Origin: Proteromonas lacertae
Taxonomy: Eukaryota
NCBI GenBank assembly: GCA_002245135.1
Contig: NGBS01000003.1
Coordinates: forward strand, 248,001 to 312,000
Direction: 5' to 3'
DNA length: 64,000 nucleotides
A program made the translations under genes and the position numbers. The notes beneath the pieces were generated by a model, which saw only the letters and a list, made by a program, of their open reading frames with translations, did not search any database and was not told where the DNA came from. The stretch's first letter is position 1; each line of letters starts with the position of its first letter. Below are positions 6,838 through 54,696 of the stretch, piece by piece.

Positions 6838-7404
6838 TTAAACATTTGGAAGAGGAGGATAAAGTGGAATTCTACCTATTTCATATTTATTTACATTATA
6901 TTCAGCTTTATTTATTCCTTCTTCTTTAAAATAACTATTTTCTATATTCACTATTGCATTATCTTCATAATCATCTTCACTAAATATCTGAGGAATGTTC
7001 ATATCATTTGAATTAAATTGATTCGAATTACTGGATTGAGAAAAAGTAGGAAATGCCGATATGCTATTGTTTGATGTAGGAAATGCACTAGTAGGAAATA
7101 CCGATGTATTAGACACATTATTAGTTGGAAAAGCAGTACTATTGGATGTTGGAAAGGGATTTGTAGAATTAGAAGTACCAAAGGGATTAGAAAAATTGTT
7201 AGAGGATTGATTAAACATAGAATTGGATGTTGTTGGAATATTTGAATTTGTATTTTGATTTATTGTAGGAAAAGATGAAAATGTGGATGGGTTTGTATTT
7301 AATGTTCCAAATCCTGAAGAATTAAATAAAGAGTTACCGCTATTTGATTGTTGTGGGAATATGCTCTGTTGTGAATTTGATTGTTGAGAAAAAAAATTAT
7401 TCAT
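6838..7404 (-). CDS. Low-complexity F/S/N-rich nucleoporin-like protein (NUP42/CG1-like C-terminus)
   Basis: Repeated NPFG/FPT/SLF motifs; C-terminal YEIGRIPLYPP resembles the Nup42 Gle1-binding tail. Confidence 0.55.
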   Translation of the reverse strand: MNNFFSQQSNSQQSIFPQQSNSGNSLFNSSGFGTLNTNPSTFSSFPTINQNTNSNIPTTSNSMFNQSSNNFSNPFGTSNSTNPFPTSNSTAFPTNNVSNTSVFPTSAFPTSNNSISAFPTFSQSSNSNQFNSNDMNIPQIFSEDDYEDNAIVNIENSYFKEEGINKAEYNVNKYEIGRIPLYPPLPNV

Positions 7405-7532
7405 TTTGTCCCAAATGCATTTGAAATATATTCGTTTCTTATTACTTTATTGATTAAAATACACAACAGAACTTCAGAAATTAATGAAACCAATCAATGT
7501 TCTTGAATTATGCTCTTGTTTAAACCTGTAAT

Positions 7533-7777
7533 TCAAGATAAATTCTATAAACAAGTATAATAATGATGTGATATATTTACAATAGAAAGTGTTAGATAAT
7601 CCATTAGAAAATAGTGATATATATGGTATAAAAGACAGTGAAAAGAGTTATCATGCTCCTCCTGACTTAAATCCTCAAAGTTTCGGATACAGACCAGGTG
7701 AAGGAGGTCATCACTTTGATGCACTTATATTATCCGTTAAAAAGCCAAAACAGAAGAAATTGCCTGCTGAACCAGAT
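7533..7777 (+). repeat. 245-bp direct repeat, copy 1 (duplicated internal fragment of the gene at 23583-24712, intron included)
   Basis: Matches 23804-24048 with 2 substitutions found; retains intron GTATAATAATGATGTGATATATTTACAATAG. Confidence 0.95.
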
Positions 7778-7911: not shown

Positions 7912-8767
7912 ATGAATTTTTCAAATAGTATATAAATCAAAATAAACCTTGTCAGTCTATATTTATTTACTTTTTATTTCTGTTTCTGTTTTATTTATAT
8001 ATTACTTATGTTATTGTAGAAAAACAGATAGTATTTTGTATAATAGAATTAATTTATTAACTGTATTATTTGCTTGTGATAGAAGTGAATTATTAAATAG
8101 AACAATAATTTCGTTTTATTCACATATTAATAAATTTGAAAGAAACATTAATATTGATTTTCACTTTGTTGATTCTGGAACACCAGATAGATTGGACTAT
8201 ATTGAAAAATATGGTATAAAGAATGTATTTTATATGAATCCTAATAATCCAGAGTATTCTTATGGTATGTTTTGGAGTTATTTGCATGGGAAATATGTTC
8301 TATTTTTAGAGGATGATAGGCCTTTTATTAAAAACATTGAAAAGCAGATTTTCTATCCAAATTATATAGAAGAAGCAATTCTAATACTCAGCAAAACTGA
8401 TGAAGTAAAAGGAATAATATTGAAACAAGATAGAGAAGGTAAATCAATAAAAAGAAATATAAAAACATATATTGGAAATCATACATTATGTATTGTTACT
8501 GAACCACCTATAGGTTTCTTTTATACAAATGGTCCTGCAGTATATAGAATTGATCATTTACTGAAAGCTGGATTATTTATATCCGAGGCAGAAATGGCTG
8601 TACAGTTTGGTAAGATGAAATGGTATACTGGATTTACTTACAAAGGATTGTATTGTAATAATAGTGGTATATATACAACAACATGTCAAGGTGTATCATG
8701 TGATCTTGGTGCTTTAAATTCTTCTCAAGATAGAAATAGAAAAATATGTAGAAATTCTTTGTATTAG
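7912..8767 (+). CDS. GT-A fold (GT2-like) glycosyltransferase with N-terminal signal anchor
   Basis: ATG 7912 joins the ORF through a 28-nt intron (7928-7955); LFACDRSELLNRTI, FHFVDSG and YVLFLEDD motifs. Confidence 0.7.
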
Positions 8768-8784
8768 TAAAATGTATTTTATTT

Positions 8785-9669
8785 ATGATGATATATTTTA
8801 TTTTACTCATTATACTTCCAAGTTTAATTTTAATAATATATAAGTTTAAATTATATTCAGATTATCATCAATACTTGTTTGTTACTTCATATTTTCAAAT
8901 TGAGAATTATGGAAAACATAGTATGAGACATTATAAAAGATGGATTAATAATTTTTTCAGTTATATAAATGATTCTTTAGTTATATTTACAGATAATAAC
9001 AGATCTTCTAAATCGTTTGTTCCTTCATTTGTAAAAGCCTATAAATATGAATATAAGTCAATATGGGATGTTCCATGTATTAAAAAATACAAAGGAGACT
9101 ATAAAAAACAACATCAAATTGATCCAGTAGGTTATCTTCATAATCCTGATGTTTATGCAATATGGAATTGTAAAATATGCTTTTTGAAAATTGCAACTAA
9201 TGATATACCAAGTAAACTATATATATGGATTGATATTGGAACGTTTAGAGATCCAACTCCATTTAATTCTCTCCCATCCTTAAAAGCTATGAATATTTTC
9301 TACAATTTCAATTCATTGTTCTTTTTTATTGTGATAAATCAAACATTTGAATTGAAGAATAAAACAGTGTTGGAAGAAAAAGATTGGATTGAAGGAGGTA
9401 CTTTCGGTGGTAATAAACAATCAATTCATCGCTATTATAATGAATATTGGAAATGGCATGATTATTTTATGTCTAGAAACAAATTTGTAGGTAAAGATCA
9501 AGTATTATACAACACAATAGCTTTACATGTATTAAATGTAACATTGATAAGAGTTCATGATTTAAATATGTGTATGGGAAATGATTGGTGGAAATATCAA
9601 TGCTTTTATGCTGGAATTAATTTAGAGTTGTTGAAAAGAGCAGATATTAATAATTACTTAGTTAAATAG
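8785..9669 (+). CDS. HtrL/YibB (WlaTC-like) family putative glycosyltransferase, paralog A
   Basis: Intronless; signal anchor; FVTSYF, LVIFTD, IWNCKICF, YIWIDIG, IEGGTFGG, FVGKDQ. Confidence 0.75.
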   Translation: MMIYFILLIILPSLILIIYKFKLYSDYHQYLFVTSYFQIENYGKHSMRHYKRWINNFFSYINDSLVIFTDNNRSSKSFVPSFVKAYKYEYKSIWDVPCIKKYKGDYKKQHQIDPVGYLHNPDVYAIWNCKICFLKIATNDIPSKLYIWIDIGTFRDPTPFNSLPSLKAMNIFYNFNSLFFFIVINQTFELKNKTVLEEKDWIEGGTFGGNKQSIHRYYNEYWKWHDYFMSRNKFVGKDQVLYNTIALHVLNVTLIRVHDLNMCMGNDWWKYQCFYAGINLELLKRADINNYLVK

Positions 9670-9689
9670 TAATACTTATTATAGTGTTA

Positions 9690-11057
9690 ATGAGTGTGTA
9701 TATTATATATAATAGAAGATTCTATATATTATTATTATCAATATTTATTTTATTATGCTGTACAATGTATTATAAAAATAGTAATATTTCTTCTGTAAAA
9801 TGTGTTGGTAGCAAATATAATAGAACATGTATATATAATAATATATATTATAACAAGGGCGAATGGATACTAATAGATGTGTCAAAAAATAAGATTAAGT
9901 GTGTTGGAGTAAGGAGTAGAAGTAGTCATGTTTGTTTCAAACCTAAAGTTAGACAAAAACCCATGAAATATAATCAAATAATTGAAGGATTATCAACATA
10001 TGTTAGTTTTTTCTATACTGGAAATATTGGTCATATATTATGGGATGACTTATATTCAATGTATTTATCACTTTTAAAATTCAATTATAAAATGGATCCT
10101 TTTAACATTATTGTGTCAAAATTAGATTCAGAATGGAGAAATAACAATAATACAAGAATTCTTGAAATTTTCTCAATGAATAAACTAATATATGAGAATG
10201 ATTTTAAAAATGATGTACTTCTTATTAAAAAGCTAATTGTTGGATTAGCTCATCACTGCCAAAGATGTGTTAATAAAGAGTATTCAATTGCAGGAGGAAA
10301 AGAACATAAAGCAACATGGTGGATGAGAAAGAGGATGTATTATACATATAACATAACAAAATGTGAAAATAGATATGGTATTATAATAGATAATAAAAGA
10401 TATACAAATGATGAAAAAATAGTTTTAAAAAATGTTGCAAAAGAATATAAAAATAGATTAAGAATTGAATATATCGATTGGAGAAATTACACTGATTTTC
10501 ACCAGCAATTGAAAATATTAAGTTGTACTAGTATTTATGTTTCTGAACCTGGAACTGGTTTGTTAAATTTTCCATTTATATCAGATCCAGGCGTTATAAT
10601 TAATTTAGGTACATTGTTTAGAGGATGCCCTTCTTTTATGGAACAGTATATCGAAGAAGGTTCTATGCATTTTATTTCACTCTATTATCCATCAAATAAA
10701 AGAAAATATGGATTAAATAATAGTGAAATCAAGTTATTAATTGATAAAGCAACTAATATTTTAAATAATTGGAAGTTGCACAAATCACTTCACACAAGTA
10801 ATTTGAATGTAGAAGGCGAAATATTTAGAAGTATCTCAAAGAAGCATCCTATTTTAATGGATAAGTTTCTGTATAACACAGATTGGGCAAGGGATATTGG
10901 ATTTGGTGTATGGGCTGAAAAACTAATCTATTATCCCAATTGTTATAATCAACATTATATTGTAGATGTAGTTGTAAATGAAACTGCTTATTATAAAAAT
11001 GAACTAGGATGCGAAATTAACTTTTCGAATGATTCATGTTTGATGAAGGAAAGCTGA
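9690..11057 (+). CDS. GT61-like glycosyltransferase
   Basis: Intronless; signal anchor; GNIGHILWDD and QQLKILSCTSIYVSEPGTGLLNFPF resemble GT61 motifs. Confidence 0.65.
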   Translation: MSVYIIYNRRFYILLLSIFILLCCTMYYKNSNISSVKCVGSKYNRTCIYNNIYYNKGEWILIDVSKNKIKCVGVRSRSSHVCFKPKVRQKPMKYNQIIEGLSTYVSFFYTGNIGHILWDDLYSMYLSLLKFNYKMDPFNIIVSKLDSEWRNNNNTRILEIFSMNKLIYENDFKNDVLLIKKLIVGLAHHCQRCVNKEYSIAGGKEHKATWWMRKRMYYTYNITKCENRYGIIIDNKRYTNDEKIVLKNVAKEYKNRLRIEYIDWRNYTDFHQQLKILSCTSIYVSEPGTGLLNFPFISDPGVIINLGTLFRGCPSFMEQYIEEGSMHFISLYYPSNKRKYGLNNSEIKLLIDKATNILNNWKLHKSLHTSNLNVEGEIFRSISKKHPILMDKFLYNTDWARDIGFGVWAEKLIYYPNCYNQHYIVDVVVNETAYYKNELGCEINFSNDSCLMKES

Positions 11058-11101
11058 TTCTTTAATAAAATACTAAAATTTCATTCAATAAAATACTATA
11101 G

Positions 11102-11962
11102 TTATTCGTTTAATGATGCAATTATATCAAAGAATGAAGTTGATTCATTACACTTCATTTTTTCTTTTATCTTATAATCATACTTTTCTAATATGTTGTA
11201 TACATCTACTTCTGAAATATTTATTTTTCTGTATGCTAGACACCATATTTCCATGTAAAAGTGTCTTATTATTTTTCTCTTTAATACTTCAATTGCTCCT
11301 TCTAACATGAATAATTCATAACCTTGAATATCTACTGATGCAAAATGAATTTTATGATTAAAATTCTTTAACACATTATCTAATGTAACAATACTAATTA
11401 TTTTTTTTTGATAATTTTGCTGTAAATTAATTAAAGAAGATCCGCCCCAATTTCCTTTTTCTACGTTGATTAATTGAGTATCATCTTTTTTTCCTAAACC
11501 AACTTTAAATAAAGTTTCATTTTTTATCCATTTTTTATTGTATAGTAATGATTTTGTTAATATATGCAGATTATTAGGAATAGGCTCAATTGATATAGTC
11601 TTTATTCCCATATTTAACATACCGAATGAACATATTCCTATATTAGCGCCAGCATCCATATAATAATCTCCATCTTTTAATCCTGGTAATAAATACCACA
11701 ATTTTTTCATTTCTTCACAATCACCCCAATCTCCTTTTTTCTTTATTTCATTAGATATATAGTCATTTTCTTTCCTAACATAGATTGAAAAATCCGGTTT
11801 ATTTTTAATTTTAACTAGTTCTAAATCTTCTATACAATCTAGACATTCAATTGACATTCCATTCCATATATGTTTATTGTTTATGTTATTGACTTTTTTG
11901 AATATGAAATAGAATAAAGTAATACAAGTAGTAATAATAACAAGAATATGATGTAATATCAT
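11102..11962 (-). CDS. FkbM-family SAM-dependent methyltransferase with signal anchor
   Basis: YMDAGANIG, SIEPIPNN, GNWGGSS, VDIQGYE; intronless. Confidence 0.85.
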   Translation of the reverse strand: MILHHILVIITTCITLFYFIFKKVNNINNKHIWNGMSIECLDCIEDLELVKIKNKPDFSIYVRKENDYISNEIKKKGDWGDCEEMKKLWYLLPGLKDGDYYMDAGANIGICSFGMLNMGIKTISIEPIPNNLHILTKSLLYNKKWIKNETLFKVGLGKKDDTQLINVEKGNWGGSSLINLQQNYQKKIISIVTLDNVLKNFNHKIHFASVDIQGYELFMLEGAIEVLKRKIIRHFYMEIWCLAYRKINISEVDVYNILEKYDYKIKEKMKCNESTSFFDIIASLNE

Positions 11963-11969
11963 AATTATA

Positions 11970-12887
11970 ATGAATTTTAATTATTATATTTTAATCCTTG
12001 TGTTTCTTATAATATTTCTTTATACAATTATTCCTCGTTCCACAAATGTGACAATCATCAAAAACGAAAAATGTGATCCTTATATTATATTTAACTCGTC
12101 ATTATATTCTACATCGGCTGGCAAAGGATTTGATGATGTATTTATTAGAAAATATTTCTTTACTTCGCTTAAGAAAGCATATGACTCTAGCGTTGATATG
12201 AAATCAATCATTATAGATGTAGGATCAAACAAAGGTGATGTAACAAGTCAATTTCATGAAATGTTTCCAAACAAAACAATTCTTTCTATTGAGCCTTTAA
12301 TTAATAACTATAATTATCAATTGAAATTGTTGAAAAATTATTCTAATATAAAGATTTATAATTATGGAATATCATACACAAATGAGATTGTAAAAATATT
12401 CACAGGTAAAGAGATAGGTTATATGTATGTGAAAGGAGAAAGTAATTCATCAGAAAAGATGGAACAGAATGTTCAGTTTATTACTATAGACTACTTCCTT
12501 AAGAATATCTGTATATAATTGTAAATATAATTAATAGATCAGTCAAATGATAATATTTATTTCTTAAAAATAGATGTAGAAGGATATGAAGATGATGTAT
12601 TGTATGGTAGTTTAAATATATTAAAAGAAAGGAAAATAAAATATATCTTTTTTGAGTACCATGATAAATGGTGCAAAACCAAACTGCTATACATTAATAA
12701 ATATCTTGAAAGATATGGATTTAATTTATATTTAATTGGCTTAAATAAATCAGTTAGAATAGTAGATGATTGTTATGAGAGTTTATCAAAAGTATTTCCT
12801 TTACACATTTTTGGATGTAATTCTTTTTATCCTAAATCAGATATTTTACATGAAGTTTATAATAATCAATTTGATAAACTATCATAA
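11970..12887 (+). CDS. FkbM-family methyltransferase with signal anchor (2 exons)
   Basis: IIDVGSNKG, SIEP; removing the 27-nt intron 12511-12537 restores LKIDVEGYE. Confidence 0.85.
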
Positions 12888-12953
12888 AACTAATAATTAC
12901 AAATTTTAATCATTTAACCCCTACTTTATTATAATTAGCATGTTCTGCTAAGG

Positions 12954-13935
12954 TTATATTATCATTTTCATAGTAAATATAATTGCATTTACTTTTTTTT
13001 GATTTATTACAATTTCTTTTCTACCTTTACACTGATGGACAATATGTAATTTTTTATCATTTCTTTCACAATACCCAATTTGTTTATAGAAGCTATCATA
13101 ATCAATTGACCAAATATAAAATGGATTTTTATTACTTGCATGATTCATTAAGCAATTGTCAATATTTTCTAATAATATATAATAATGAACAAATTTCTTC
13201 CAATAGAAGAAAGAATAATACTCTTTTACCCACAATTTATTGAAAAATGTATCTGGAATTTCATAGAAATATTTATCTTTAATCCTTTCTTTTACTATTT
13301 CTATAGGCATAAGCCAAAATGAACTAAAACCATCTTGCATTTCTATATAACATTTATCCTTGTGCTTCTTAAACACTACAAAATCCAGTATAATCTGGAG
13401 TTCTTTTAAATAATACTCCATTTTTATCTCTGTATATAACATATCTTAAAAATCCAGGTATATAGTATTTTCCTAGACTTTTAATTATTTTATAACAATT
13501 TAGATAATAATTTAAATGTTTTAACTCTAATATAACATCGCTTTCAATATATCCTATATAGTTATACCTTTTTATTGAATTTCCTAAATTTCCTATATGA
13601 TATCTGTGTTGTGCAGTAAGATATGTTCCTATACTTGCATTGCACTTAATAAATTCAACAGGAACATATGTATTTAATTTTTGACAATATAAAGGATTTA
13701 ATATTAATGAATTGTTAGGTATTTCTGTGTAATGGACAATTAATTTTATATATATCCCACCTTCACATATGTTTAAAACACTATTCTGTAGTGTATAGAA
13801 GTAGTCAAATTGGGATGTTCCATAGAGAGCTGTATATATTAATATTGATGTAATATACTGTTGGTATTTTATGTAAATATAAACAACAACAACAGATAAA
13901 AATATAAACATGAACAAGGAGAATCGTATTTTCAT
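12954..13935 (-). CDS. Putative glycosyltransferase-like type II membrane protein, split over two overlapping ORFs
   Basis: Signal anchor, YNYIGYIESD acidic motif, IPGFLRY; frames joinable by a 22-nt GT-AG intron or a 1-nt indel. Confidence 0.5.
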
Positions 13936-13968
13936 TTTAAGAAGTGTTTTAAGCTACTTTTTAATGTG

Positions 13969-15649
13969 TTATATAAATAGTTTATCCACTTTATACTCTC
14001 CATCACCAAATTCTAATATTAATTCTCCTTTATTATGTATTTTATTTCTGAAATATTCTTCATAGTTGGTAGAATATTCTATTCCTTTATTATTCACTAT
14101 CAAATTATTCATTTTCAATATTCCTCTACTTTTTACTTTTATAGTCAGTGATCCATTTACATTTATATTGTTTATATATACATTTCCTTTTATTACCAAT
14201 TTTGAATTATTCTTTACTACAATTATCCCTTTAAAGTGTCTTTTAATATTTTGTGTGGTTGAAGAAATTAGAGGATCAATATGTATTTTAGTATTATCTC
14301 CTATTTTCCATCCAAATTTTGTAAGTTTCTTTTTATTCCTGATATACATTTTTTGTTCTCCATCATCAGGAGTATAAAAATCATTATCATTTGATATTTC
14401 CTTTACAGGATTAAAACATAACCATCTCGGCATATATGTACTACTTATATTGTCAAATTCTTTAGTGAAAATTATATAATCTTGTAATACTGTTTCTAAC
14501 CTAAATGACCTTGCTTTTCTATTAGAAAGAATATATTCTGGTAGAACTTTGTCTGTATTTACAAGAGTATTTAAATAGTAATGTAAATTGAAACAAATAA
14601 TGTTAGTTACTGCAGGATAATAAGATTGATTATCACTAATGTTATTTATATCTTCACCTAGTAATCCTTGTAAACATGAATAATCTATAGCTCTTACTTT
14701 GTATTTTCTTCCATCTTCTTCACATGAACATAATATAGAAGCTTTTTCTCCTTCATATCTCTTAACAATTAAGTAATTAACATCTATGTTGTTACGAATA
14801 GAACAACCTATCAAAACTGGTATTGATTCAAAAGCAAGTGAGTTTGTATCTTGAAAAATAATAAAATACTTAACACCTTTATCTTTCCATTTTTTTAATA
14901 TTTTGTTCTATATATATATATAATATTATATATACTTTTATTAATAAGTGATGTACATCTCCATGACCATGAGGTTTATCAATTAATTTACCATCTACAT
15001 AACATAAATTACAATTTATATCAATGAAAGATGGAACATTACTTTGTTTAACAAAATAGAACTGTTCATATGATAAACCAAAATAACTATTTTCTTCTAA
15101 GAAGTGTTTAGTGATAATGTCAGTTGCTTCAGAAGTCATTATACATACAAATATCAATTTACCTGATATATTTTGATAAGACTTTATATATCTTATATAG
15201 AACTCTAAATAACTATATCCACTTATTTGATCTATTGGTAAAGATACTTTTATATCATTATTGTTTAACCTTTCGCCTAATCCACCAGCAACCAATACAA
15301 ATCCACAATAATGAATATTTGTTATACCTACTGATTCATAATTTAAAAACAGCTTATCCAAGTATTTTACTTCTACTCCTTCTGGTTTTGAAATGTTATT
15401 TATATTGTAATGATACTTTTTTTCTTCATATAGATTAATCAATTTCTTTCCTTTGATTATATAGTCTTTTAATCCATGTTGTAAAGTTTTATCATATTTT
15501 AATGCTTGAAAGCATAAATCCATTAATTCTAAGATGTTAGTAATTAATATACTATTATCATTTTTTGCCTTTTCTATTACATCATGTTGGTTAGATTTTA
15601 TTAAAATATGATAACCATAATAATACAGTATTAGTTCTGAAAATAACAT
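13969..15649 (-). CDS. USP: UDP-sugar pyrophosphorylase (USP), 2 exons
   Basis: GFVLVAGGLGERL and KPHGHGDVHHLL; after the intron at ~14908-14935, FQDTNSLAF, then RLETVLQDY and FNPVK. Confidence 0.85.
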
Positions 15650-15683
15650 TACAAAAGTGATATATAATAACAGAAATATAAAA

Positions 15684-16682
15684 CTATTTTAAATTTAGCA
15701 AATGTTTATGATAATGATTATATTTTGTTTCTATTGTGTAGGTATTCTTTTTAAATTTCTTCTCATCAAAACTTTTACATTTCTTTCTATTTTCAGCGCA
15801 TATTCCTTGTTCAATTAAATAATTAATTACTTTATTCATCATAACTGAATCTCCATGTTTATCAACATTAATTCCCTCAATCTTCTTAAAATTGACATAA
15901 ACATATGAATAAGGTAAATGAATAGTACATCTGGTTGGAAATGGATTTTCTTCTATGTTAATTAACGAATATTGGTTTTCATACTTCATTATGTGTATAT
16001 ACTCCAAAAATGTGCCGAATTGCCCAAATACATATTCTTCCATTAATTTCACTAAAGTTGAATTATGAACTTTTTCAATGTAATTCCATGTCTCTTCTAC
16101 ATGCTTAGTTTTAACGATAATAGGATAAGTAAACATAACATCTCCCCAATTTGAATTATTAGACTTAAGTATTTGTGTTGGATCCCACCTTGAGTCTCTA
16201 AACTTTAAAGTATAAAGAATAAATGGTCTTCTGTTTGTATCAAATAATATATCATATTTTGCATATGACATAAAAGGTGAATCAGAATCTATCATTGCAA
16301 TAAATTCATCTGGTATGCAATACTTATACGAAACATAAGAATTGTATTGTTGTTTCATAACTTGAGCTTTTATATCTGGTGTTGATGTTCTAATAATTGT
16401 CCAATCATTTGAGTAATTAAACGGTAATGCTCCATTGAAGTTGTCTATCCAATGTATTTTTTTACCTATCCCTTTAGGCCAAAATGTATCAATACTATTA
16501 ATTATGCTTTGAACAAATGGAAAATCCTCAACTGCACTAGGCAAAAACAAACATACACTTACATTATTTGATTTAAACTTCCAACTAAAATCTATTTTTT
16601 GATCTGATTGGATATATAACACATAATACAATGCACAAGATATGCTGCATATTAAAGTAATGAAAATAATTAAAACAATCAT
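15684..16682 (-). CDS. Putative GT-A glycosyltransferase with signal anchor
   Basis: MIVLIIFITLICSISCALYY anchor; FIAMIDSD (DxD) motif; intronless. Confidence 0.55.
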   Translation of the reverse strand: MIVLIIFITLICSISCALYYVLYIQSDQKIDFSWKFKSNNVSVCLFLPSAVEDFPFVQSIINSIDTFWPKGIGKKIHWIDNFNGALPFNYSNDWTIIRTSTPDIKAQVMKQQYNSYVSYKYCIPDEFIAMIDSDSPFMSYAKYDILFDTNRRPFILYTLKFRDSRWDPTQILKSNNSNWGDVMFTYPIIVKTKHVEETWNYIEKVHNSTLVKLMEEYVFGQFGTFLEYIHIMKYENQYSLINIEENPFPTRCTIHLPYSYVYVNFKKIEGINVDKHGDSVMMNKVINYLIEQGICAENRKKCKSFDEKKFKKNTYTIETKYNHYHKHLLNLK

Positions 16683-16704
16683 TCTATATAAACAAATATA
16701 AGAA

Positions 16705-16943
16705 ATATTGACTAAACCAATTTTCAATGCTGGACAGATGTATTGGACCAAACAATACATCTAATAACAACAGATGAAGGTATTTTAAATAACTTTGTAT
16801 ATTCTAATAAATTTAAGTATAATGTATATCTAAAACATCATGGTTATGGATATGCACTATTTCTACATTATCCTATCCCATTTACAAAAGACAATTTTAC
16901 TCCACATAATAATTACCTTTATTGTGGCAAGGCAGTGAAATGA
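16705..16943 (+). pseudogene. Possible decayed glycosyltransferase fragment
   Basis: KPIFNAGQMY in one frame and TDEGILNNFVYSNKF in another recall NxG and DQG-x2-N motifs of GT-A enzymes; no start or anchor. Confidence 0.3.
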
Positions 16944-17024
16944 GAAAGAAAAATTATAAAAAATATATAAAGTATCATAAAAGTGTAAAATCATATAATG
17001 TTAAATAAATAAATAAAGCATTTA

Positions 17025-17939
17025 TCATTTATTAATAATATAATCATTTATATCTACTTCTTTTAATAAATCCAAATTTAAACCACCCAAAAAGCATTGA
17101 AACCTCCACCAATTATTTCCCATACACATATTAAGATTGTGAACTCTTATCAAAGTCACTTTTAGAATATACAATGCTATTGTGTTGTATAGCGTTTGAT
17201 CTTTACCTACAAACTGATTCTTGTTCAAAAAATAATCATGTAATTTCCAAAATTCTTCATAATATCTATTAATTGATTTTTTATTTCCTCCAAAACTAGT
17301 TCCTTCAATCCAATCTCTAACAACTAATTCTGTTTTATTTTTTAGTTTAAATGTTTGATTATAAACTGTAAAAAAGAACATTGATTGAAATGTATATAAG
17401 ATGTTGATTGCTTTTAATGATGGAATTGAATCAAAAGGAGTAGGATCTCTAAATGTTCCTATATCAATCCATATATATAGTTTACTAGCTATATCATTAG
17501 CTGCTGTTTCTAGAAAACATATTTTGCAATTCCATATTGCATAAACATCAGGACTGTGTAGAAAACTCTCTCTGTCAATTTGATGTTGTTTTACATAATC
17601 TTCTTTGTATTTCTTAATACATGGAACATCCCATATTGACTTATATTCATATTTATATGCTTTAACGAACGAAGGAACGAAAGATGTAGAAGATTTGTTA
17701 TTATCTGTAAATATTACCAAAGATTCATTTATAAAACTGAAGAATCTATTTATCCATAACCGATATTCTTGAAGTTTGTGTTTCCCATTATTATCAACAT
17801 GAAAATATGAAGTAACAAACAGATATTGGTAAATATGTTTATTATCTTCAAAATTAAAATACAATAAACCATAATATACTCTATAAAAGATAGAAAATAA
17901 AAGAATAAATGACAGGTAATTAATACTTTTATGAATCAT
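17025..17939 (-). CDS. HtrL/YibB (WlaTC-like) family putative glycosyltransferase, paralog B
   Basis: Close paralog of 8785-9669, sharing SFVPSFVKAYKYEYKSIWDVPCIKKYK and LYIWIDIGTFRDPTPF. Confidence 0.75.
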   Translation of the reverse strand: MIHKSINYLSFILLFSIFYRVYYGLLYFNFEDNKHIYQYLFVTSYFHVDNNGKHKLQEYRLWINRFFSFINESLVIFTDNNKSSTSFVPSFVKAYKYEYKSIWDVPCIKKYKEDYVKQHQIDRESFLHSPDVYAIWNCKICFLETAANDIASKLYIWIDIGTFRDPTPFDSIPSLKAINILYTFQSMFFFTVYNQTFKLKNKTELVVRDWIEGTSFGGNKKSINRYYEEFWKLHDYFLNKNQFVGKDQTLYNTIALYILKVTLIRVHNLNMCMGNNWWRFQCFLGGLNLDLLKEVDINDYIINK

Positions 17940-18794
17940 GTCTATTTATTCTATTTTCTGTTGCTGATATTAAGCTGTGTTGTGTATAAATATTTTATTT
18001 ATTTAAAATCATATAAAGATTATGAAATCGGAGTTGTTGTGAGAGTTTCAAAACCTTCATTATCTCAGCAAAAAAGATATATGAAATGGATGAAATCACT
18101 ATCATATAAATATTCATTTTGGATTATAACAAATTATAATACATCACTTCTTCCCAATTTTTCAAATGTGATAAGAATTTCATCTGAGTTGATTATGAAA
18201 AGATATCCGCATATAAAAGAATTGAAAGATCCAGGTCATTGTAATCAGCGGTACATGGAAGATGATATTTTTTATCCTTTCATTTCTCATACAGAATCAG
18301 TAATTGAGTTAATAAGTAAATACAATTTAAAATTCAAATATATATGGGTTATTGAACAAGATTTTGGTTGTACAGGTGAGTTGTTTGATTTTTTACAGAT
18401 ATATGAACCAACAAAATGTGATTTTATAACAGCTGAAATCAATCTTAATTTTGCTTCACAATGGCCGCATGTAAAATGCTGTAGTAATAATTATGCAAAG
18501 TGGAGAAATATATACTCAAACAGTTCTGTTGGATATTCATCAAAGGAATTTATTCAAAGATGGAGTTATAAACTTGTAATGAAAATAAAAAAGAATCTAG
18601 AGAATGGAATTCATTCGATTTCAGAAGCTAGTGTTCCAGAAACTGTCATTTTTAATAATTTAACTTACAAAATCATTGATAATAAATATATAAGTGATTC
18701 TTTCATGTGGAATTCAAGAGTATCTGAAGAAAAATGGAATGAAATTATAAATAAAACTAACGATATAAAACTCTATCATGGTCTTAAGTTTTAA
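17931..18794 (+). CDS. Putative glycosyltransferase (DUF3405-like), paralog A
   Basis: Signal anchor; FKYIWVIEQDFGCTG; C-terminal LYHGLKF. Confidence 0.55.
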   Translation: MNHVYLFYFLLLILSCVVYKYFIYLKSYKDYEIGVVVRVSKPSLSQQKRYMKWMKSLSYKYSFWIITNYNTSLLPNFSNVIRISSELIMKRYPHIKELKDPGHCNQRYMEDDIFYPFISHTESVIELISKYNLKFKYIWVIEQDFGCTGELFDFLQIYEPTKCDFITAEINLNFASQWPHVKCCSNNYAKWRNIYSNSSVGYSSKEFIQRWSYKLVMKIKKNLENGIHSISEASVPETVIFNNLTYKIIDNKYISDSFMWNSRVSEEKWNEIINKTNDIKLYHGLKF

Positions 18795-18795
18795 T

Positions 18796-19883
18796 TTACA
18801 TATCTGGAAATTTCAAACATGAATTTGATTTAAAATTATCTACTAAATCTGTGTATGTCTCATAATCATATACATCTCCTTCAAATGTAATAAACTTGAA
18901 TTTGTTTTTCATATCATCATATATTTTATTCTCATAAAACATATATAACACAACTTTTGAATATGTACTTTTATGAGAAACAATCAAATAATCTGTTAAA
19001 CTTGCAAATACCAAATCTCCAATCGTTTTTATAAATGTTAAATTATTATATATTTTGGAGGTATGTCTTGGTATTTCATTAGGCATAAACAGAATAGTTT
19101 TATTATACAATTGAGAAAACTGTTTTGAAAAAATATGATTTGCAGAACTTAGAAAAATATAACAATCTTTACCATTCGTCAAGTTGTGTGAGAGAGATAA
19201 TACTTTCTTAGCAACATTTTCATTCACATCACAATTACTAGATACAACACATCCATCATGAGATCTGTATTGTATTCCTAACTTGCATTGATTTTTAAAT
19301 TGTTCAGTAAATTTTAACACCAACTTCTTTATTCTCTTCTTTACTACAACAATTTCAGTATAAAGTTTGCTGTTTGTTTGTAGAATTCTTTCAAGAATTT
19401 CACTATCTCTTCTTTTTATATAACCATTCTTAATAAACCATGATAATAATTTTTCACATTTAACTAAAGTTGGAATTAAATCTAATACATCTATTATTAC
19501 ATAAACATCTCTATTTGATAAAACAAACTTATAATAGAATTCACACATACTTTGACAATATCCTTCCCATCTAATATCAATTTTTGTATAATTTGGGCTT
19601 ATATACTTTATAGGTGAGTAGTATATACTACTTTCTATGTAATCACTAACGAATTCATAATTATATACTATCATCAATAGAAAAATATTATACAATATAA
19701 ATCTCTATTTGATAGTTGTGAAAGAATAAAACAGCCAGCTATTCCCATCAATCTATTACATAAACCACTAAATGATATTTCATTTATAAGTATATTCTTT
19801 TTTAACTTAATATTTCCACATACAATTATCAGAAAAAATATAAGAAAAATTGAACAGAAGAAGAAAATCCAATTTCTATTCAT
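18796..19883 (-). CDS. Fucosyltransferase-like protein (GT-B; GT11/GT23/GT37 clan), 2 exons
   Basis: SGLCNRLMG, LGIQYRSHD, YIFLSSAN, DLVFASLTDYLIVSHKSTYS; a 26-nt intron at ~19668-19693 joins the two ORFs. Confidence 0.7.
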
Positions 19884-19912
19884 ATTAAATTAACAATTAC
19901 TTCCATATATTT

Positions 19913-20788
19913 TTAAAATTTTAAAGCATGATATAACTTATTCTTTTTTGAAGGATTAGTTGTAATTATATTCCATTCTTCCATACCTATTCTAGTTCCA
20001 TATGAACATTTATAACCAATATCATCCTTTTCAATTACTCTAATTGATAAATCATTAAATGATGCAACTTCAGCCAATAATCCTTCATTTTGTGTATGTC
20101 TTTTTAACTTCATATTTTTATTCATGAAATATATGAATTTTCTAGACCATCTTGCAATATTTATTGGAGCAACAACTCTACTTTTTACAGGTAGAATTGA
20201 TTCTTTCCATTTTCTATATTCTTCAGTGAAACAATCCAACCACATCCACCCACTATCATTTCTATGAATTACGTATGGCAATACAATTAAATCATCATAT
20301 TTTCTATCATATTTTTGAAAGAAATTGAAGAAATTACCAGAATATGCAATGTCTTGTTCTATAATCCACAAATACTTATATTTTAAATTGTTTGTATTTA
20401 CCCAAATCATTACATGTTCAAATGGCATTGTCCACATATAAAAATTGTCAGGTTTATTATTACAATATCCTGACATATTCTTCATTGCTGGATATGTCTT
20501 CATCATCTTTTTAGAATCCACACATGTTATAAAGACACTCTTTATTTTTAAGTCACATCTATCAGTTAATATTGCGACAAAATAATCTGAAGGACAGTTA
20601 TCTCCCCATTCTTTATATCTTTCTTTTTGAAACTGAGTAGGATTAGAAGCATGAATCAAAATCACAGATTTATATACTTTTTCAGTTTGAATTAGATTAT
20701 TGGTTTTTATTTGATTTAATGAAATATATATAATAATTATAGAAAACATAAAAAATAAAATTATTACATATAGAGAATATATATTCAT
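19913..20788 (-). CDS. Putative glycosyltransferase (DUF3405-like), paralog B
   Basis: YKYLWIIEQDIAYSG and C-terminal LYHALKF; colinear with 17931-18794. Confidence 0.55.
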   Translation of the reverse strand: MNIYSLYVIILFFMFSIIIIYISLNQIKTNNLIQTEKVYKSVILIHASNPTQFQKERYKEWGDNCPSDYFVAILTDRCDLKIKSVFITCVDSKKMMKTYPAMKNMSGYCNNKPDNFYMWTMPFEHVMIWVNTNNLKYKYLWIIEQDIAYSGNFFNFFQKYDRKYDDLIVLPYVIHRNDSGWMWLDCFTEEYRKWKESILPVKSRVVAPINIARWSRKFIYFMNKNMKLKRHTQNEGLLAEVASFNDLSIRVIEKDDIGYKCSYGTRIGMEEWNIITTNPSKKNKLYHALKF

Positions 20789-21225
20789 AATCCTTCATAT
20801 TAAACATTATAAATATACCGGATACTATCATAATTATCTATTCTCCTAATAATTGAAATAAAATCTGAGTTTTCGCAGCAATTAATATAAATTAGTATCA
20901 TCACTTCCTACATTTCTTCAAATTTTATATTTGTTACGCAATTAATCATATTTCTCATTAAATAAACTTAGTAAGACACAAAAAATAAAACACTTCATTA
21001 TCTTCATATTCCACATTATTACAACATATATGTGTGTAATATTTTCTACCAATATTTCTGGAATTAAAATTCATTTCTATCTGTCCTTTTAAACAGATCT
21101 TCTTAATAATACAACTTTTTCTATCACAAATCGGTTAAACATAACAATGATACATTCAAAATTACATATAAAAGCAAAGTGATATTGAATAACTCATTAA
21201 TAACATAAATAACAAAAATTAAAAA

Positions 21226-22368
21226 TTAAATTAGGCTTGACTTGATTCTTTTTGATTTTTGATTTATTCTTATTGACATTTCATCCATTTCATTTTTTAT
21301 GAATGTAGGACAAAGCTTATTTAGTTCAGGATTGAGATGTCTGGTATGTCTATTATACGCATATTTTGATTCTATAGTAGTTTGTGTTATATCTGAATGA
21401 CATGGAATATTGTGTATTTCCAAACATGATACTTTTAATGGATTAGCTATAACATACTTTCTAGCATGTCCATTTTGAGTTTGACAAGATATATTAATTT
21501 TAAACATATCAATATCAGTTAATTTCATATCTTTGTCATGTTTATACTCAACAACAGTGTTAGAAGGTGGGAACACTCTTCCATGCAAAAAATATACATC
21601 AAATAAAGGAAGTTTTGAGAATAATTCATCATAATTCTTTCCAACAACTGGCCAAAGAATCTCATCAAAATCCAACTCCATTATATAATTAGATACTTCT
21701 TGATATTTATGAAAACAATGATTTAATTTCCACACTTCACCATAATATCTTCTTTTCCATATTTCTTCCATCGTTTCATTATACCTATTCGTTTCTAATA
21801 TTCCATCATTTACATAATACTCTAATACTTTCATTACTTCTGGAGTGGAACTTACATAATATGTTACTATTTTTGACACTCCAAAAGCCTTCATTGATTC
21901 AATATGTTGAATTAAATAAGTCACTCTATTAAAATTTACTAAAACCGGCGAACAAACAACATATTTATATTTTTCTTTAACAGGATTTGGAATATCAATT
22001 TTAACATCATCTAAAACAACATAACTAGGTTTTATTTTAGATGATAGGTTGATTCTTACATTAAAGTAAAAAGAATCAATATTGTTAGATTTTATAAACT
22101 CAGCAAAACACTTTATTTGTTTATTTTCATATATATAATAACAACTATTAAAAGTTATGTTCCGCAGAGGAGAATATCCATGTAGTAATATATGCGAAGC
22201 TTCTTTTTTATAAAACACTCCATTTATATATGAATTTTGATTTATTTTGTAAAATGGAATATCAATGAAGTTAGTTATGATATTTCCTCTTACATATTCT
22301 TCATTCATAAAATATATAATTAATATAATAAGTATGATATATATAAGAAGATATCTCTTCATATACAT
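21226..22368 (-). CDS. GT92 (DUF23) family glycosyltransferase
   Basis: KYVVCSPVL, FGVSKIVTY, LNHCFHKY, ELDFDEILWP; signal anchor; intronless. Confidence 0.8.
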   Translation of the reverse strand: MYMKRYLLIYIILIILIIYFMNEEYVRGNIITNFIDIPFYKINQNSYINGVFYKKEASHILLHGYSPLRNITFNSCYYIYENKQIKCFAEFIKSNNIDSFYFNVRINLSSKIKPSYVVLDDVKIDIPNPVKEKYKYVVCSPVLVNFNRVTYLIQHIESMKAFGVSKIVTYYVSSTPEVMKVLEYYVNDGILETNRYNETMEEIWKRRYYGEVWKLNHCFHKYQEVSNYIMELDFDEILWPVVGKNYDELFSKLPLFDVYFLHGRVFPPSNTVVEYKHDKDMKLTDIDMFKINISCQTQNGHARKYVIANPLKVSCLEIHNIPCHSDITQTTIESKYAYNRHTRHLNPELNKLCPTFIKNEMDEMSIRINQKSKRIKSSLI

Positions 22369-23582: not shown

Positions 23583-24712
23583 ATGTCTCTTAAAATCTTA
23601 GAGAAAGAAGAAAATGCTTGGAGAAGAATAGAACAGAAATCTTAGTATTGTAATACTTATAATGTGGTTAGTTTTTTTAGGAAAAGATATTACATTCCCA
23701 ATATTGAGTTAGATCATGAACCATATTGTCCAGAAAGAACATTATTGAGTAAAATTGAAATGAATCGATATTATCGAAATCCATTACTACATGAACCAAC
23801 AGCTCAAGATAAATTCTATAAACAAGTATAATAATGATGTGATATATTTACAATAGAAAGTGTTAGATAATCCATTAGAAAATAGTGATATATATGGTAT
23901 AAAAGACAGTGAAAAGAGTTATCATGCTCCTCCTGACTTAAATCCTCAAAGTTTCGGATACAGACCAGGTGAAGGAGGTCATCACTTTGATGCACTTACA
24001 TTATCCGTTAAAAAGCCAAAACAGAAGAAATTACCTGCTGAACCAGATGGATTATTATCAGCTGCAAGATTAAACACATTACTTCACTCCAAAGTAAAAA
24101 CAAATCAATATACAGGTGATCCTCATGAATTAGAATTATTATTACGTGCTCCAAGTGCTAAAGCAATGTCTGATATAACTTGTAAACCACATAAACCAGT
24201 ATAAGAAATATTGTTATTATTATTAGACATATGAAGAATCTTTAGAAGATCCAATAGTTCAAAAAGAATTTGAAGATACAGTAATACCTCCAAAGATAAT
24301 CAAAAATGGAACATTAACTCCAATTGAAAAATCCAAGAAGAAAAACAAGAAAGAGTTGTATTTAAAAGAATTAGAATCTGGTTTTGATAATACAATGTAT
24401 ATCAATAGTTATATATATATATATAGATGTCATACACATCAAATTCGTCAAAATAGTGCTCCAATATTAACTAGACAAAAGCAAATCAATAACAAAGAGA
24501 AATATGCGAAATTGGCGGCTAATAAATTAACCACAACTTTATGCACAGAGAAGATAATGACAGATGATATATTAAAGACAATGTTTCCTGATACTATTGA
24601 TAGATATAAGAGAGAAGATGAGGGCAATCATAGAGAATATTTGTGTAGAAGTGTTGTACATACTACTACTCCAAGACCAATGAGAAAGAAACTGTTTGGA
24701 TCAAAAGAGTAA
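23583..24712 (+). CDS. Hypothetical protein, multi-exon
   Basis: ATG 23583; open frame after removing short introns (23645-23671, 23826-23856 and later ones). Confidence 0.7.
23804..24048 (+). repeat. 245-bp direct repeat, copy 2 (donor copy inside the intact gene)
   Basis: Matches 7533-7777. Confidence 0.95.
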
Positions 24713-37760: not shown

Positions 37761-37805
37761 GTAAAAATTATAACTATAGTTTGTATTTTATTTGTTTTAT
37801 TTATA

Positions 37806-39319
37806 AAACACCAAATAAACAATATCAATAAATATTATGTTAAACAAATTATCATATAATATTTAAAACACTTTATTTATATACTCTCAAATGATTTCAA
37901 ATGACTTTCATATTCTTTCTTCTTATTAAAACATTTTAAACAGTATTTACAGATTCGAGTAGTTTTCTTTATATTTAAATCAACATTGTATAAATTCATT
38001 ATTGGTTTTAAGTATTCGAGATAATAATAACGAATTATTCGTTTTTCACTTCGATGAAACAACAAATTGATTATTTCTATTTGTGGTTTATGATTCGTAT
38101 ATTGAGTTGTTCTTAATATTTCAATCTTCTTTTCATCATACATATAGAATATGTTTATTCCTATATTGTTATATTTCTCGAAAGTTCTTAAACCAATTTC
38201 ATCACATGGATCTACTGGATATTTTAATTCATATTTTATCTTATCTTTATGTTGTAATAGATTTTCTATTCGATAGTTTTCTAAATAGTTTCGCTCCTTT
38301 GAATAATGGAATAGAATTGAATATAAGAAACTCTTGTTATCATTACATGGAATTTTATCAGTGTAAACAAGTACATCTTTTGAAGATATTTGGTCGAATT
38401 GTATACTTACTTTCATAAAAACCATTATTATTATTGTGTAATCCTTGTTCATGTCGGATATCGGAATATATTGGAATAACCACTTGAAACAATTGGAATT
38501 GACTCGATTCTACCTTTGAAATTACAGTTATCAAATATCATCTTTGCATTACATTCAGATGATGAATTTAGAAGAAATTCATTACAAAAACTATTGGATA
38601 TTGCAAAATTCTTATTAGAAGCACTTGATTCATAATCACACTCAGTTTTTATCATTAATGGAGATTTGCTTGTTGAATCTGATATAATATCATTACCTGA
38701 ATATGGAACATCTGGAACATATTCATTATAATCACATATATCTGGAGAATAAGAATCTACTTTTTCACAGATGAATTCTTTCCAACTATTGTATGTTGAT
38801 TTTTCATCTTCATAACACATTTTTTTGTTTGGTACACCATATACTTCGCGATCTACTTCTGGATTTTCGACATTATATAAATCTAGATAATATGATCTTC
38901 TTTTGTTGATATTCAGTCTATCCAGTTCATTGTAAATCGAATTATCATCGTTATCTAAGGTTCATACACTCCTCATTACTCATTATTGTTTTGCTTTTAA
39001 ACCCAAAAGAAAAAATCAAATGAAAATCAAATATATATCAAACCATGTTAATTCTTTTTGAAAACAGCCAATCAAATTCCATCAGAAACTCTATTTCATT
39101 GGTTTATATATTGTAATGCCTCACTTGTGAGAAGGCTAGATTATCGTTTTGGTATAACCGCCTTGATGTATATATGTATGTATAGGTATTTGTGGATGTT
39201 CAGTAATCACATGTGAGGCTTAAACTATATCTAGAAGATTAAAGAATTATTCGTTTTATTCTTCTATCATCCTTCACTCATTATTATCCCATTCATCCTT
39301 CATTCAATCCTTATTCCTT
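37806..39319 (-). repeat. Left arm of large inverted repeat
   Basis: Reverse complement of 39590-41100. Confidence 0.97.
37877..38983 (-). pseudogene. Frameshifted copy of the 39926-41029 ORF
   Basis: Three +1 insertions relative to the right copy (~38360, ~38457, ~38961) break the frame. Confidence 0.75.
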
Positions 39320-39589
39320 AATAATATCATCATCCTCATTTATTACAGTTTTTTCATCCTTCAAAAAGTCACTCAGTCAAAAGTAGGATGAAAATTGATG
39401 ATAGAGGATAATTTCCTCAAATAGTAGAAAAAGGATTATAAAAAGAGGATTTTTAGTTAAGTCTTCTTTTTATAATCCTATTCTCTATATGATCCATCTG
39501 TGAGGAATATTATCCCTTTTTTTCAATCCTCCTAATAATCCTCTATTATCACTTTTTATGAGTTTGTAGGTGTGTAAAATCCTTCTGTG

Positions 39590-41100: not shown

Positions 41101-41248
41101 AAAATAGAAATGAAAATATTGAAACGATTATATTATCAGAATAAATATGTAATATAGTCGTTTCATTTTTTGATTTTTCAAAATTCTCAATTAACAGAGT
41201 ATAAAACTAATATGAGATTAAAACATATAAAATCAACATTTATAAATA

Positions 41249-54300: not shown

Positions 54301-54696
54301 TAGCACATATTGAACATATAACACTACCAATATCACTAATTGAAAAGGATTTACTTTCAATTATCTCTTCAAGATCTTTTGAATAATATTCTCTCTCATA
54401 TATCATATATTCACCACAATTATTCAATTGAAGCATTTTTGAAGGATAAGAACAGCTTAAACAACTATCACTCAATAAGGAGCTATTTTCACAGAATTTC
54501 AATATCCTATTTTCTTTTATTCTACTAACATTAAGCATTTTCACTATTTTAATATCTTGTTCACACAGTAAAACAAAATCTACTTCATATTTACTCTTTT
54601 CTACTCTCTCTTTTATCTATATAATTAAATTAATTATAATACTTTTGAACCAGATAGTAATATGGAAGATATTATTCTATCTAAGTAAATATTCAT
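51376..54696 (-). CDS. Degenerate protein kinase domain fused to RI-like leucine-rich repeats
   Basis: FKSPEEL, VWSIGCILYEMICKKLPF; catalytic loop VVDNLKSSNV; repeated NPIGxxG LRRs. Confidence 0.8.

What the first reader, a model, noticed from the sequence alone, without database searches (positions are those of the whole stretch)
7912..22368. Eukaryotic glycan biosynthetic gene cluster resembling a bacterial capsule/O-antigen locus
Seen: about 13 consecutive genes with no housekeeping gene between them. They are GT2-like, 2 HtrL/YibB, GT61-like, 2 FkbM methyltransferases, 2 unclassified GT-like, USP, 2 DUF3405-like, fucosyltransferase-like and GT92. All but USP have an N-terminal signal anchor. 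They carry 0-1 intron each, against many in most flanking genes. Established: HtrL/YibB and FkbM occur in bacterial surface-polysaccharide loci and giant viruses, and type II anchors mark Golgi enzymes. Inference: different families, not one tandem array, are co-located to build and methylate one surface-coat or cyst glycan. They may have been acquired laterally and adapted to the secretory pathway.
Basis: partly seen in the sequence, partly recalled or inferred. Interest (0 to 1): 0.88.

Follow-up and report, generated by a model that had tools for sequence, protein, structure and literature searches.

The report
Insertable sugar-coat gene cassette in protist
A single-celled eukaryote carries 13 tightly packed genes, most of them for sugar-adding or methylating enzymes, in one 14.5-kb block bracketed by two copies of a piece of the neighbouring gene, so the block likely builds one surface sugar coat and likely arrived at this spot as a unit, much as bacterial surface-antigen islands do.

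Summary
The cluster is real: 13 ORFs, 92% coding, 10 of 12 gaps of 66 nt or less, 4-5 introns against about 22 expected. Profiles or folds support two FkbM methyltransferases, GT92, a eukaryote-type USP, two GT-A enzymes linked to HtrL and two GT31-fold enzymes (the 'DUF3405-like' pair); the other five are weaker calls.

A 245-bp, 99%-identical direct repeat (7533-7777 = 23804-24048) brackets the block. The right copy lies inside an intact host gene; the left copy is an orphan preceded by a decayed trace of the same exon. This is the layout of an island that replaced its target gene's 5' end.

Recent lateral transfer is not supported: synonymous GC matches the host, and no close bacterial or viral relative was found. 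The host is likely Proteromonas-like, and P. lacertae has large expansions of these same families, so this may be one of many cassettes. Co-expression, product and excision are untested. Closest precedent: the Ostreococcus small outlier chromosome.

The parts
7473..7532 (+). Decayed, in-register homolog of exon 2 of host gene X, directly upstream of the left repeat (likely the displaced old 5' part)
   Evidence: 29 of 60 nt identical in register, empirical p=0.002; 19 of 31 differences are transitions vs 28.5% expected, p=1.4e-4; in-frame stop
7533..7777 (+). Left 245-bp direct repeat: orphan copy of exon end + 31-nt intron + exon part of gene X
   Evidence: 2 differences in 245 nt
7912..8767 (+). 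g1, 275 aa, signal anchor, GT2-like by recalled motifs only; 28-nt intron 7928-7955
   Evidence: no Pfam/NCBIfam/PDB hit; PHROG unknown family E=4e-4 (14)
8785..9669 (+). g2, 294 aa, GT-A fold, HtrL/WlaTC-related
   Evidence: model pLDDT 77.5; Z 11.0 LARGE1, 10.5 BoGT6a; hhalign 97.6% to an ORF that passes the HtrL_YibB cut-off
9690..11057 (+). g3, 455 aa, GT61-like
   Evidence: PF04577 E=9e-6, 26.4 bits vs cut-off 27
11102..11962 (-). g4, 286 aa, FkbM methyltransferase with signal anchor
   Evidence: PF05050 47 bits, TIGR01444 60 bits
11970..12887 (+). g5, 296 aa, FkbM methyltransferase with signal anchor; 27-nt intron 12511-12537; start codon 7 nt from that of g4
12954..13935 (-). g6, about 319 aa, unclassified GT-like (ESD motif); atypical intron or frameshift near 13400
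   Evidence: no homologs; weak feature lead to GT2-bearing clusters
13969..15649 (-). g7, 550 aa, eukaryote-type UDP-sugar pyrophosphorylase, no anchor; 28-nt intron 14908-14935
   Evidence: PDB USPs E=1.6e-24 and 5e-20, ahead of UDP-GlcNAc pyrophosphorylases; Pfam UDPGP
15684..16682 (-). g8, 332 aa, DUF6492-like with DSD motif, likely GT
   Evidence: Atlas features 0.95-0.96 to two unnamed eukaryote clusters and a DUF6492 cluster (85)
16690..16943 (+). Broken fragment resembling the end of a further GT gene (recalled motif; no start, frameshifted)
   Evidence: six-frame view; no database support (10; 14, E=0.047)
17025..17939 (-). g9, 304 aa, paralog of g2 (68% over the alignment)
   Evidence: dN/dS 0.17, dS 0.91 (92)
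17931..18794 (+). g10, 287 aa, GT31-fold family (paralog of g12, 29%); start overlaps that of g9 by 9 nt
18796..19883 (-). g11, 353 aa, fucosyltransferase-like by recalled motifs only; 26-nt intron 19668-19693
   Evidence: no Pfam, PDB or phage hit
19913..20788 (-). g12, 291 aa, DUF3405-like, GT31-type fold
   Evidence: pLDDT 96 (70); Z 14.9 CHSY3, 13.7 B3GalT5, 13.3 B3GalT6 (103); PF11885 26.7 bits
21226..22368 (-). g13, 380 aa, GT92
   Evidence: PF01697 91.9 bits
22369..23582 (.). 1.2-kb non-coding spacer, 20.5% GC; likely holds the promoters of g13 and gene X
23583..24712 (+). Host gene X, intact, at least 3 introns, no family assigned
23804..24048 (+). Right 245-bp direct repeat, internal to gene X

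Best explanation
The 13 genes likely form a Golgi glycan-building cassette of a gut-flagellate-like protist, and the block likely entered this site as a unit by recombination in the 5' part of host gene X, which is intact on the right and survives as a scrap on the left. How it would work: the cytosolic USP activates sugar-1-phosphates to UDP-sugars; ten type II membrane enzymes of at least six families (two GT31-fold, two HtrL-related GT-A, GT92, GT61-like, and the weaker calls) would extend and cap a chain on surface proteins or lipids in the Golgi; two anchored FkbM enzymes would O-methylate it. Shown: gene content, packing, intron poverty, folds of two families, purifying selection between g2 and g9, the repeat and the decayed exon. 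Inferred: Golgi location, one shared product, block insertion. The insertion is likely old (host-like synonymous GC, internal paralogs at dS 0.9, upstream scrap about half decayed), while the 245-bp tract was copied recently (0.8% different), so the two ends likely still recombine; one crossover would release a 16,271-bp circle.
For: Packing and chance; folds; profiles; dN/dS 0.17; sharp limits, with ordinary housekeeping genes on both sides; direct repeat; decayed exon in register; g10 groups with an outside sequence (P0127, 97% support) rather than with g12, so that pair is not a recent local duplicate. PMC4482086 (passages) describes the same layout for dusA islands: the island supplies a new 5' end and the old one forms the outer boundary. 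PMC12129017 Table S5 (rows, 117-121): P. lacertae has FkbM 70, GT31 59, GT92 48, GT61 29, UDPGP 20 against 4, 0, 0, 7, 3 in Cafeteria, which fits repeated cassettes if the host is its kin.
Against: No expression, glycan or strain data. No integrase or transposase in the block. No nucleotide-sugar transporter, epimerase or GDP-fucose gene, so the pathway is not self-contained. Five genes (g1, g3, g6, g8, g11) lack a firm assignment and g6 may be broken. No homology to gene X is detectable downstream of the left repeat (21 of 60, p=0.36), and the upstream trace is only about 50-60 nt and is not significant in an unanchored local alignment (p=0.30). The host is not identified: enolase is unresolved. 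If these families run to hundreds of copies in the host, a region that simply collects them is plausible.
Confidence: 0.6

Rival explanations
1. A birth-and-death zone: a permissive region that collected fast-evolving glycan genes one or two at a time, with no single product; the gene X scrap is a by-product of one local repair event.
For: Inverted internal paralogs g2/g9 (7), a broken GT-like fragment and a possibly frameshifted g6, mixed strands, large family sizes in P. lacertae (117-121), similar enrichment on the Ostreococcus outlier chromosome (PMC5082852 passages).
Against: Gaps of 66 nt or less in 10 of 12 joints and abutting or overlapping divergent starts suggest long co-adaptation; a USP among the transferases; sharp ends framed by one duplicated host gene (11, 98).
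Confidence: 0.25
2. A recent lateral insert from a bacterium or giant virus (capsule-type or virion-glycan locus) that gained anchors and introns.
For: Total GC 24.5% vs 28-29% in the near flanks; few introns; nearest folds in the viral library are giant-virus GTs; the one metagenome hit lies on a contig whose genes look giant-virus-like (my reading); CpG lower in the block (0.29 vs 0.43).
Against: The GC drop is at codon positions 1-2 (amino-acid bias); GC3 0.178 vs 0.166 (p=0.35), fourfold GC 0.107 vs 0.119 (p=0.32). Best plasmid hits for g4 are 27-31%; 12 other plasmid, phage, viral, prokaryote-genome or homolog searches gave nothing. Closest homologs are unnamed assembly proteins at 43-74%, and one farther one is a marine-protist transcript. 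USP is eukaryote-type. Ancient gene-by-gene transfer is not excluded.
Confidence: 0.07
3. Assembly effect: the block is an extrachromosomal circle or another haplotype that shares 245 bp with gene X and was threaded into this contig, or the repeat was homogenised by read polishing.
For: The repeat is about one short-read length and its edges are abrupt; no reads could be laid.
Against: The copies differ at 2 positions; the decayed exon next to the left copy needs a long-standing second copy; gene X's own 5' exons lie inside the framed segment.
Confidence: 0.08

Closest known systems
Small outlier chromosome of Ostreococcus tauri and other Mamiellales (PMC5082852, passages read)
   Same: Eukaryotic region of lower GC rich in GTs and methyltransferases, with GT92 and FkbM; proposed to change surface glycans
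   Different: There a whole 102-290-kb chromosome with transporters, epimerases, transposons and about half unknown genes; here a 14.5-kb interstitial block of glycan genes only, with host-like synonymous GC, framed by a duplicated host gene
Bacterial genomic islands integrated in the 5' end of dusA (PMC4482086, passages read)
   Same: Target gene intact on one side, its displaced 5' part left at the far boundary, direct repeats at both ends
   Different: Those carry a tyrosine integrase and 21-bp att sites and are shown to excise; here no recombinase, a 245-bp repeat that includes an intron, excision untested
Bacterial O-antigen/capsule loci (general knowledge)
   Same: Many unrelated GTs plus modifying and sugar-activating enzymes in one compact slot between housekeeping genes
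   Different: Both strands, spliceosomal introns, Golgi-type anchors, no Wzx/Wzy/ABC export or initiating transferase
Fungal galactosaminogalactan five-gene cluster (PMC8224951, search listing and start of abstract only)
   Same: Eukaryotic gene cluster for one extracellular glycan
   Different: Five conserved genes around one synthase; here about ten separate Golgi-type transferases and two methyltransferases
Giant-virus glycosylation clusters and islands (PMC10117803 listing; PMC13620141 passages)
   Same: GTs and methyltransferases in variable islands; overlapping fold families
   Different: No viral core gene here; relatives in viruses are remote (14-27% identity)

Membership tests
Bacterial O-antigen/capsule locus | Wzx/Wzy or ABC export genes and an initiating transferase | tested here: not met
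   No such Pfam/NCBIfam hit; no second membrane segment in the 10 of 13 proteins scanned along their length
Bacterial O-antigen/capsule locus | Co-oriented, intron-free operon | tested here: not met
   5 genes on +, 8 on -, 4 clear introns
Mamiellales small outlier chromosome | Enrichment in GTs and methyltransferases | tested here: met
Mamiellales small outlier chromosome | A whole small chromosome of lower GC | tested here: not met
   Interstitial block between housekeeping genes; synonymous GC equals host
Mamiellales small outlier chromosome | Strain-to-strain variation and link to virus resistance | not testable with these tools
   No genome held
dusA-type integrative island | Target gene restored, old 5' end at the outer boundary | tested here: inconclusive
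   Decayed in-register exon upstream of the left repeat (98, 122) fits, but no empty allele is known to show which 5' end is the original
dusA-type integrative island | Encoded site-specific recombinase | tested here: not met
   No recombinase ORF; the XerA hit on g2 (E=0.044, 13 vs 220 bits) is noise, g2 folds as GT-A
dusA-type integrative island | Excision as a circle | not testable with these tools
   No reads available
Endogenous giant-virus element | Viral core genes (capsid, polB, packaging ATPase) | tested here: not met
   None among the 13 ORFs
GT31-type transferase (g10, g12) | GT-A fold closest to GT31 structures, DxD-like motif | tested here: met
   Top seven rows Z 14.9-11.4: CHSY3, B3GalT5, B3GalT6, GfsA, B3GNT2, C1GalT1, Fringe (that these are GT31 is recalled); EQD with invariant or near-invariant E144/D146
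GT31-type transferase (g10, g12) | Sequence membership of CAZy GT31 and activity | not tested
   No Pfam galactosyltransferase hit; no CAZy library here
HtrL/YibB (g2, g9) | Match to PF09612 | tested here: inconclusive
   0 of 8 family members hit directly; linked through the L001 ORF (41, 46)
UDP-sugar pyrophosphorylase (g7) | Best match to USP structures, nucleotide-binding motifs kept | tested here: met
FkbM methyltransferase (g4, g5) | PF05050/TIGR01444 above cut-off | tested here: met

The most novel reading that the evidence does not exclude
A eukaryotic serotype cassette: a 16.3-kb glycan island that enters and leaves a host gene by homologous recombination at 245-bp repeats, one of perhaps ten to twenty such USP- and FkbM-bearing cassettes in the genome, letting a gut flagellate switch or swap its sugar coat as bacteria swap O-antigen loci. 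Excision would leave gene X in frame from an ATG at 7510, so the empty site could be viable.
Probability: 0.2. Interest if true: 0.9.

Novelty: new variant of a known kind. Interest (0 to 1): 0.68.

Why it matters
Golgi glycosylation genes are normally scattered in eukaryotes (general knowledge). A compact multi-family cassette hands over a whole candidate pathway at once, including enzyme families with no assigned chemistry (DUF3405 now with a GT31-type fold, HtrL-related, DUF6492-like) and lumenal FkbM methyltransferases. If the framed block excises or differs between strains, it gives a simple testable mechanism for surface variation in gut protists, and may explain the large FkbM, GT92, GT31 and UDPGP counts tabulated for Proteromonas lacertae.

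Tried and rejected
tRNA att sites: none in the window. Whole genome: not held. Sequencing runs: none was listed, so no reads were laid. Exact look-up of 10 candidate proteins: 0 of 10 in the collection. Poly(A)-made stop codons of human Blastocystis: all 13 genes end in genomic stops; the TGTTTGTT motif occurs 10 times vs 5.6 expected, 7 of 100 shuffles as high. Host placement by enolase: 96% to one unnamed protein, 71% to tortoise Blastocystis, unresolved in a quick tree of 48 rows (47 of the 120 listed hits). Blastocystis as host is disfavoured: TPH-domain and FkbM genes are present here and absent from 8 of 8 Blastocystis genomes in Table S5. Synteny in relatives: the one metagenome scan gave a single 27% hit. 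PDB sequence searches for g1, g11, g13 and both alignments gave nothing useful. The CpG deficit is weak: several 3-kb windows outside are as low. The P. lacertae supplement held as text is a cut GFF without proteins, so family motifs could not be counted there. Paper searches listed no report of such a cluster in Opalinata or of DUF3405 as a glycosyltransferase; the P. lacertae genome paper is not held, three supplements of PMC12129017 were too large to read, and version 1 of its preprint, which mentions glycosyltransferases, could not be read. Earlier scan notes held nothing for this genome or sequence.
Full report
Setting. The window is eukaryotic, AT-rich, read with the standard code, with 25-49-nt GT..AG introns. 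Flanking genes include a strawberry-notch-type helicase, a WD40/NLE protein, enolase, a TPH-domain protein, kinases and a multi-domain ion channel (some names are my reading of the ORFs). No genome is held. Enolase does not place the host. In Table S5 of PMC12129017 (rows read in 117, 118, 120, 121) TPH domains number 8 and FkbM 70 in Proteromonas lacertae and 0 in all eight Blastocystis genomes, and the introns in the first part of its annotation file are mostly of the same short size. I infer a Proteromonas-like flagellate; this is not shown.

Observation. Thirteen ORFs cover 92% of 7912-22368, with 10 of 12 gaps of 66 nt or less. Two divergent pairs almost share their start: g4/g5 are 7 nt apart and g9/g10 overlap by 9 nt. 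Eleven proteins have a strong N-terminal hydrophobic segment, g9 a weak one, USP none. Four introns are clear and g6 has a doubtful one or a frameshift, against about 22 expected from the flanks. A run like this is not expected by chance under any plausible share of glycan genes, and none of the 13 has a relative elsewhere in the window.

What the genes are. g4 and g5 are FkbM methyltransferases, g13 is GT92, g3 is just under the GT61 cut-off. g7 matches USP structures far better than other pyrophosphorylases. g2/g9 have no Pfam hit, but their model is GT-A (best Z 11.0, rmsd 4.8, 212 aligned) and their profile aligns at 97.6% to an ORF that passes the HtrL_YibB cut-off. g10/g12 belong to a family of 232 representatives; the g12 model (pLDDT 96) is closest to chondroitin synthase, B3GalT5, B3GalT6, GfsA, B3GNT2, C1GalT1 and Fringe (Z 14.9-11.4), so the DUF3405-like pair are likely GT31-type enzymes. 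g8 resembles DUF6492 and two unnamed eukaryote clusters by language-model features. g1, g6 and g11 remain motif-level calls. g2 and g9 differ with dN/dS 0.17 at dS 0.91: both have been kept functional for a long time.

Origin. The block's low GC (24.5% vs 29.2% and 28.4% in the near flanks) comes from amino-acid bias; third and fourfold positions match the host. The nearest homologs are unnamed assembly proteins (6 of 436 candidates for g2, 43-74%; top ten clusters for g10/g12); among ten farther clusters two carry names, one a marine-protist transcript. Prokaryotic and viral searches gave only 27-31% FkbM hits, one 27% metagenome hit and remote folds in giant viruses. The genes draw on an old pool shared by protists, giant viruses and bacteria, but nothing points to a recent transfer.

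The frame. A 245-bp repeat with two differences lies at 7533-7777 and 23804-24048. The right copy is an inner part of intact gene X (23583-24712); the left copy stands alone. The 60 nt upstream of the left copy match gene X's exon in register at 29 of 60 (p=0.002 against all window positions), with 19 transitions among 31 differences (p=1.4e-4) and an in-frame stop. Downstream there is no such trace (21 of 60), and an unanchored alignment does not detect the upstream one. The order is therefore: decayed piece of X, repeat, cluster, spacer, 5' part of X, repeat, 3' part of X. Bacterial dusA islands have this order (PMC4482086, passages). With no integrase here, homologous recombination is the likely route; PMC5608401 (passages) reports that Blastocystis apparently lacks non-homologous end joining, which is untested for this host. 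The contrast between a half-decayed flank and a 99% tract means an old duplication with a recent copying event. One crossover would excise 16,271 bp, and the resulting allele of X stays in frame from an ATG at 7510 over the 130 codons checked.

Mechanism. Most likely the cassette encodes a Golgi assembly line for a methylated surface glycan, with USP raising UDP-sugar supply and host genes supplying transport. Content, folds and frame are shown; location, shared product, insertion and excision are inferred. P. lacertae's counts (UDPGP 20, FkbM 70, GT31 59, GT92 48, GT61 29) would fit many such cassettes, but equally make a collecting zone plausible.

Comparison and verdict. It works like a bacterial surface-antigen locus but fails membership (no export genes, both strands, introns). 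The closest eukaryotic precedent is the Mamiellales outlier chromosome (PMC5082852, passages), which is larger, mixed and not framed. PMC13620141 (passages) and PMC10117803 and PMC8224951 (listings only) give viral and fungal precedents. PMC10690189 and its bioRxiv copy were searched by passage. My searches found no report of such a cluster in this lineage. Verdict: real, a new variant of a known kind, interest 0.68; 0.9 if the cassette proves exchangeable (probability about 0.2).

Noticed in passing
window 37791-41115: A 3.3-kb near-perfect palindrome (arms 99-100% complementary) around a central imperfect hairpin (DNA fold z=-12). Each arm holds the same ORF, which by recalled motifs resembles the N-terminal part of Polinton-type proteins; no Pfam, PHROG or viral-contig support. 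May be a fold-back end of a linear element.
   Followed up: partly
window 17931-17939 and 11960-11972: Divergent gene pairs whose start codons overlap or lie 7 nt apart, so each promoter must sit in the partner's coding sequence.
   Followed up: partly
window 6838-7406 (-): FG-rich protein ending like Nup42/NUPL2 (recalled); its 5' end abuts the decayed gene X scrap and might be shortened.
   Followed up: no
window 13365-13445: g6 changes frame here; no candidate intron has the usual AT-rich GTA..TAG form, so this may be a frameshift or a sequencing error.
   Followed up: partly
L001 9977-10894: HtrL_YibB gene on a metagenome contig with a NADAR gene and paralogous unknown ORFs, giant-virus-like in my reading.
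   Followed up: partly
window 51379-54616 (-): AT-rich kinase plus leucine-rich-repeat gene region (20-24% GC), possibly a member of an expanded family.
   Followed up: no
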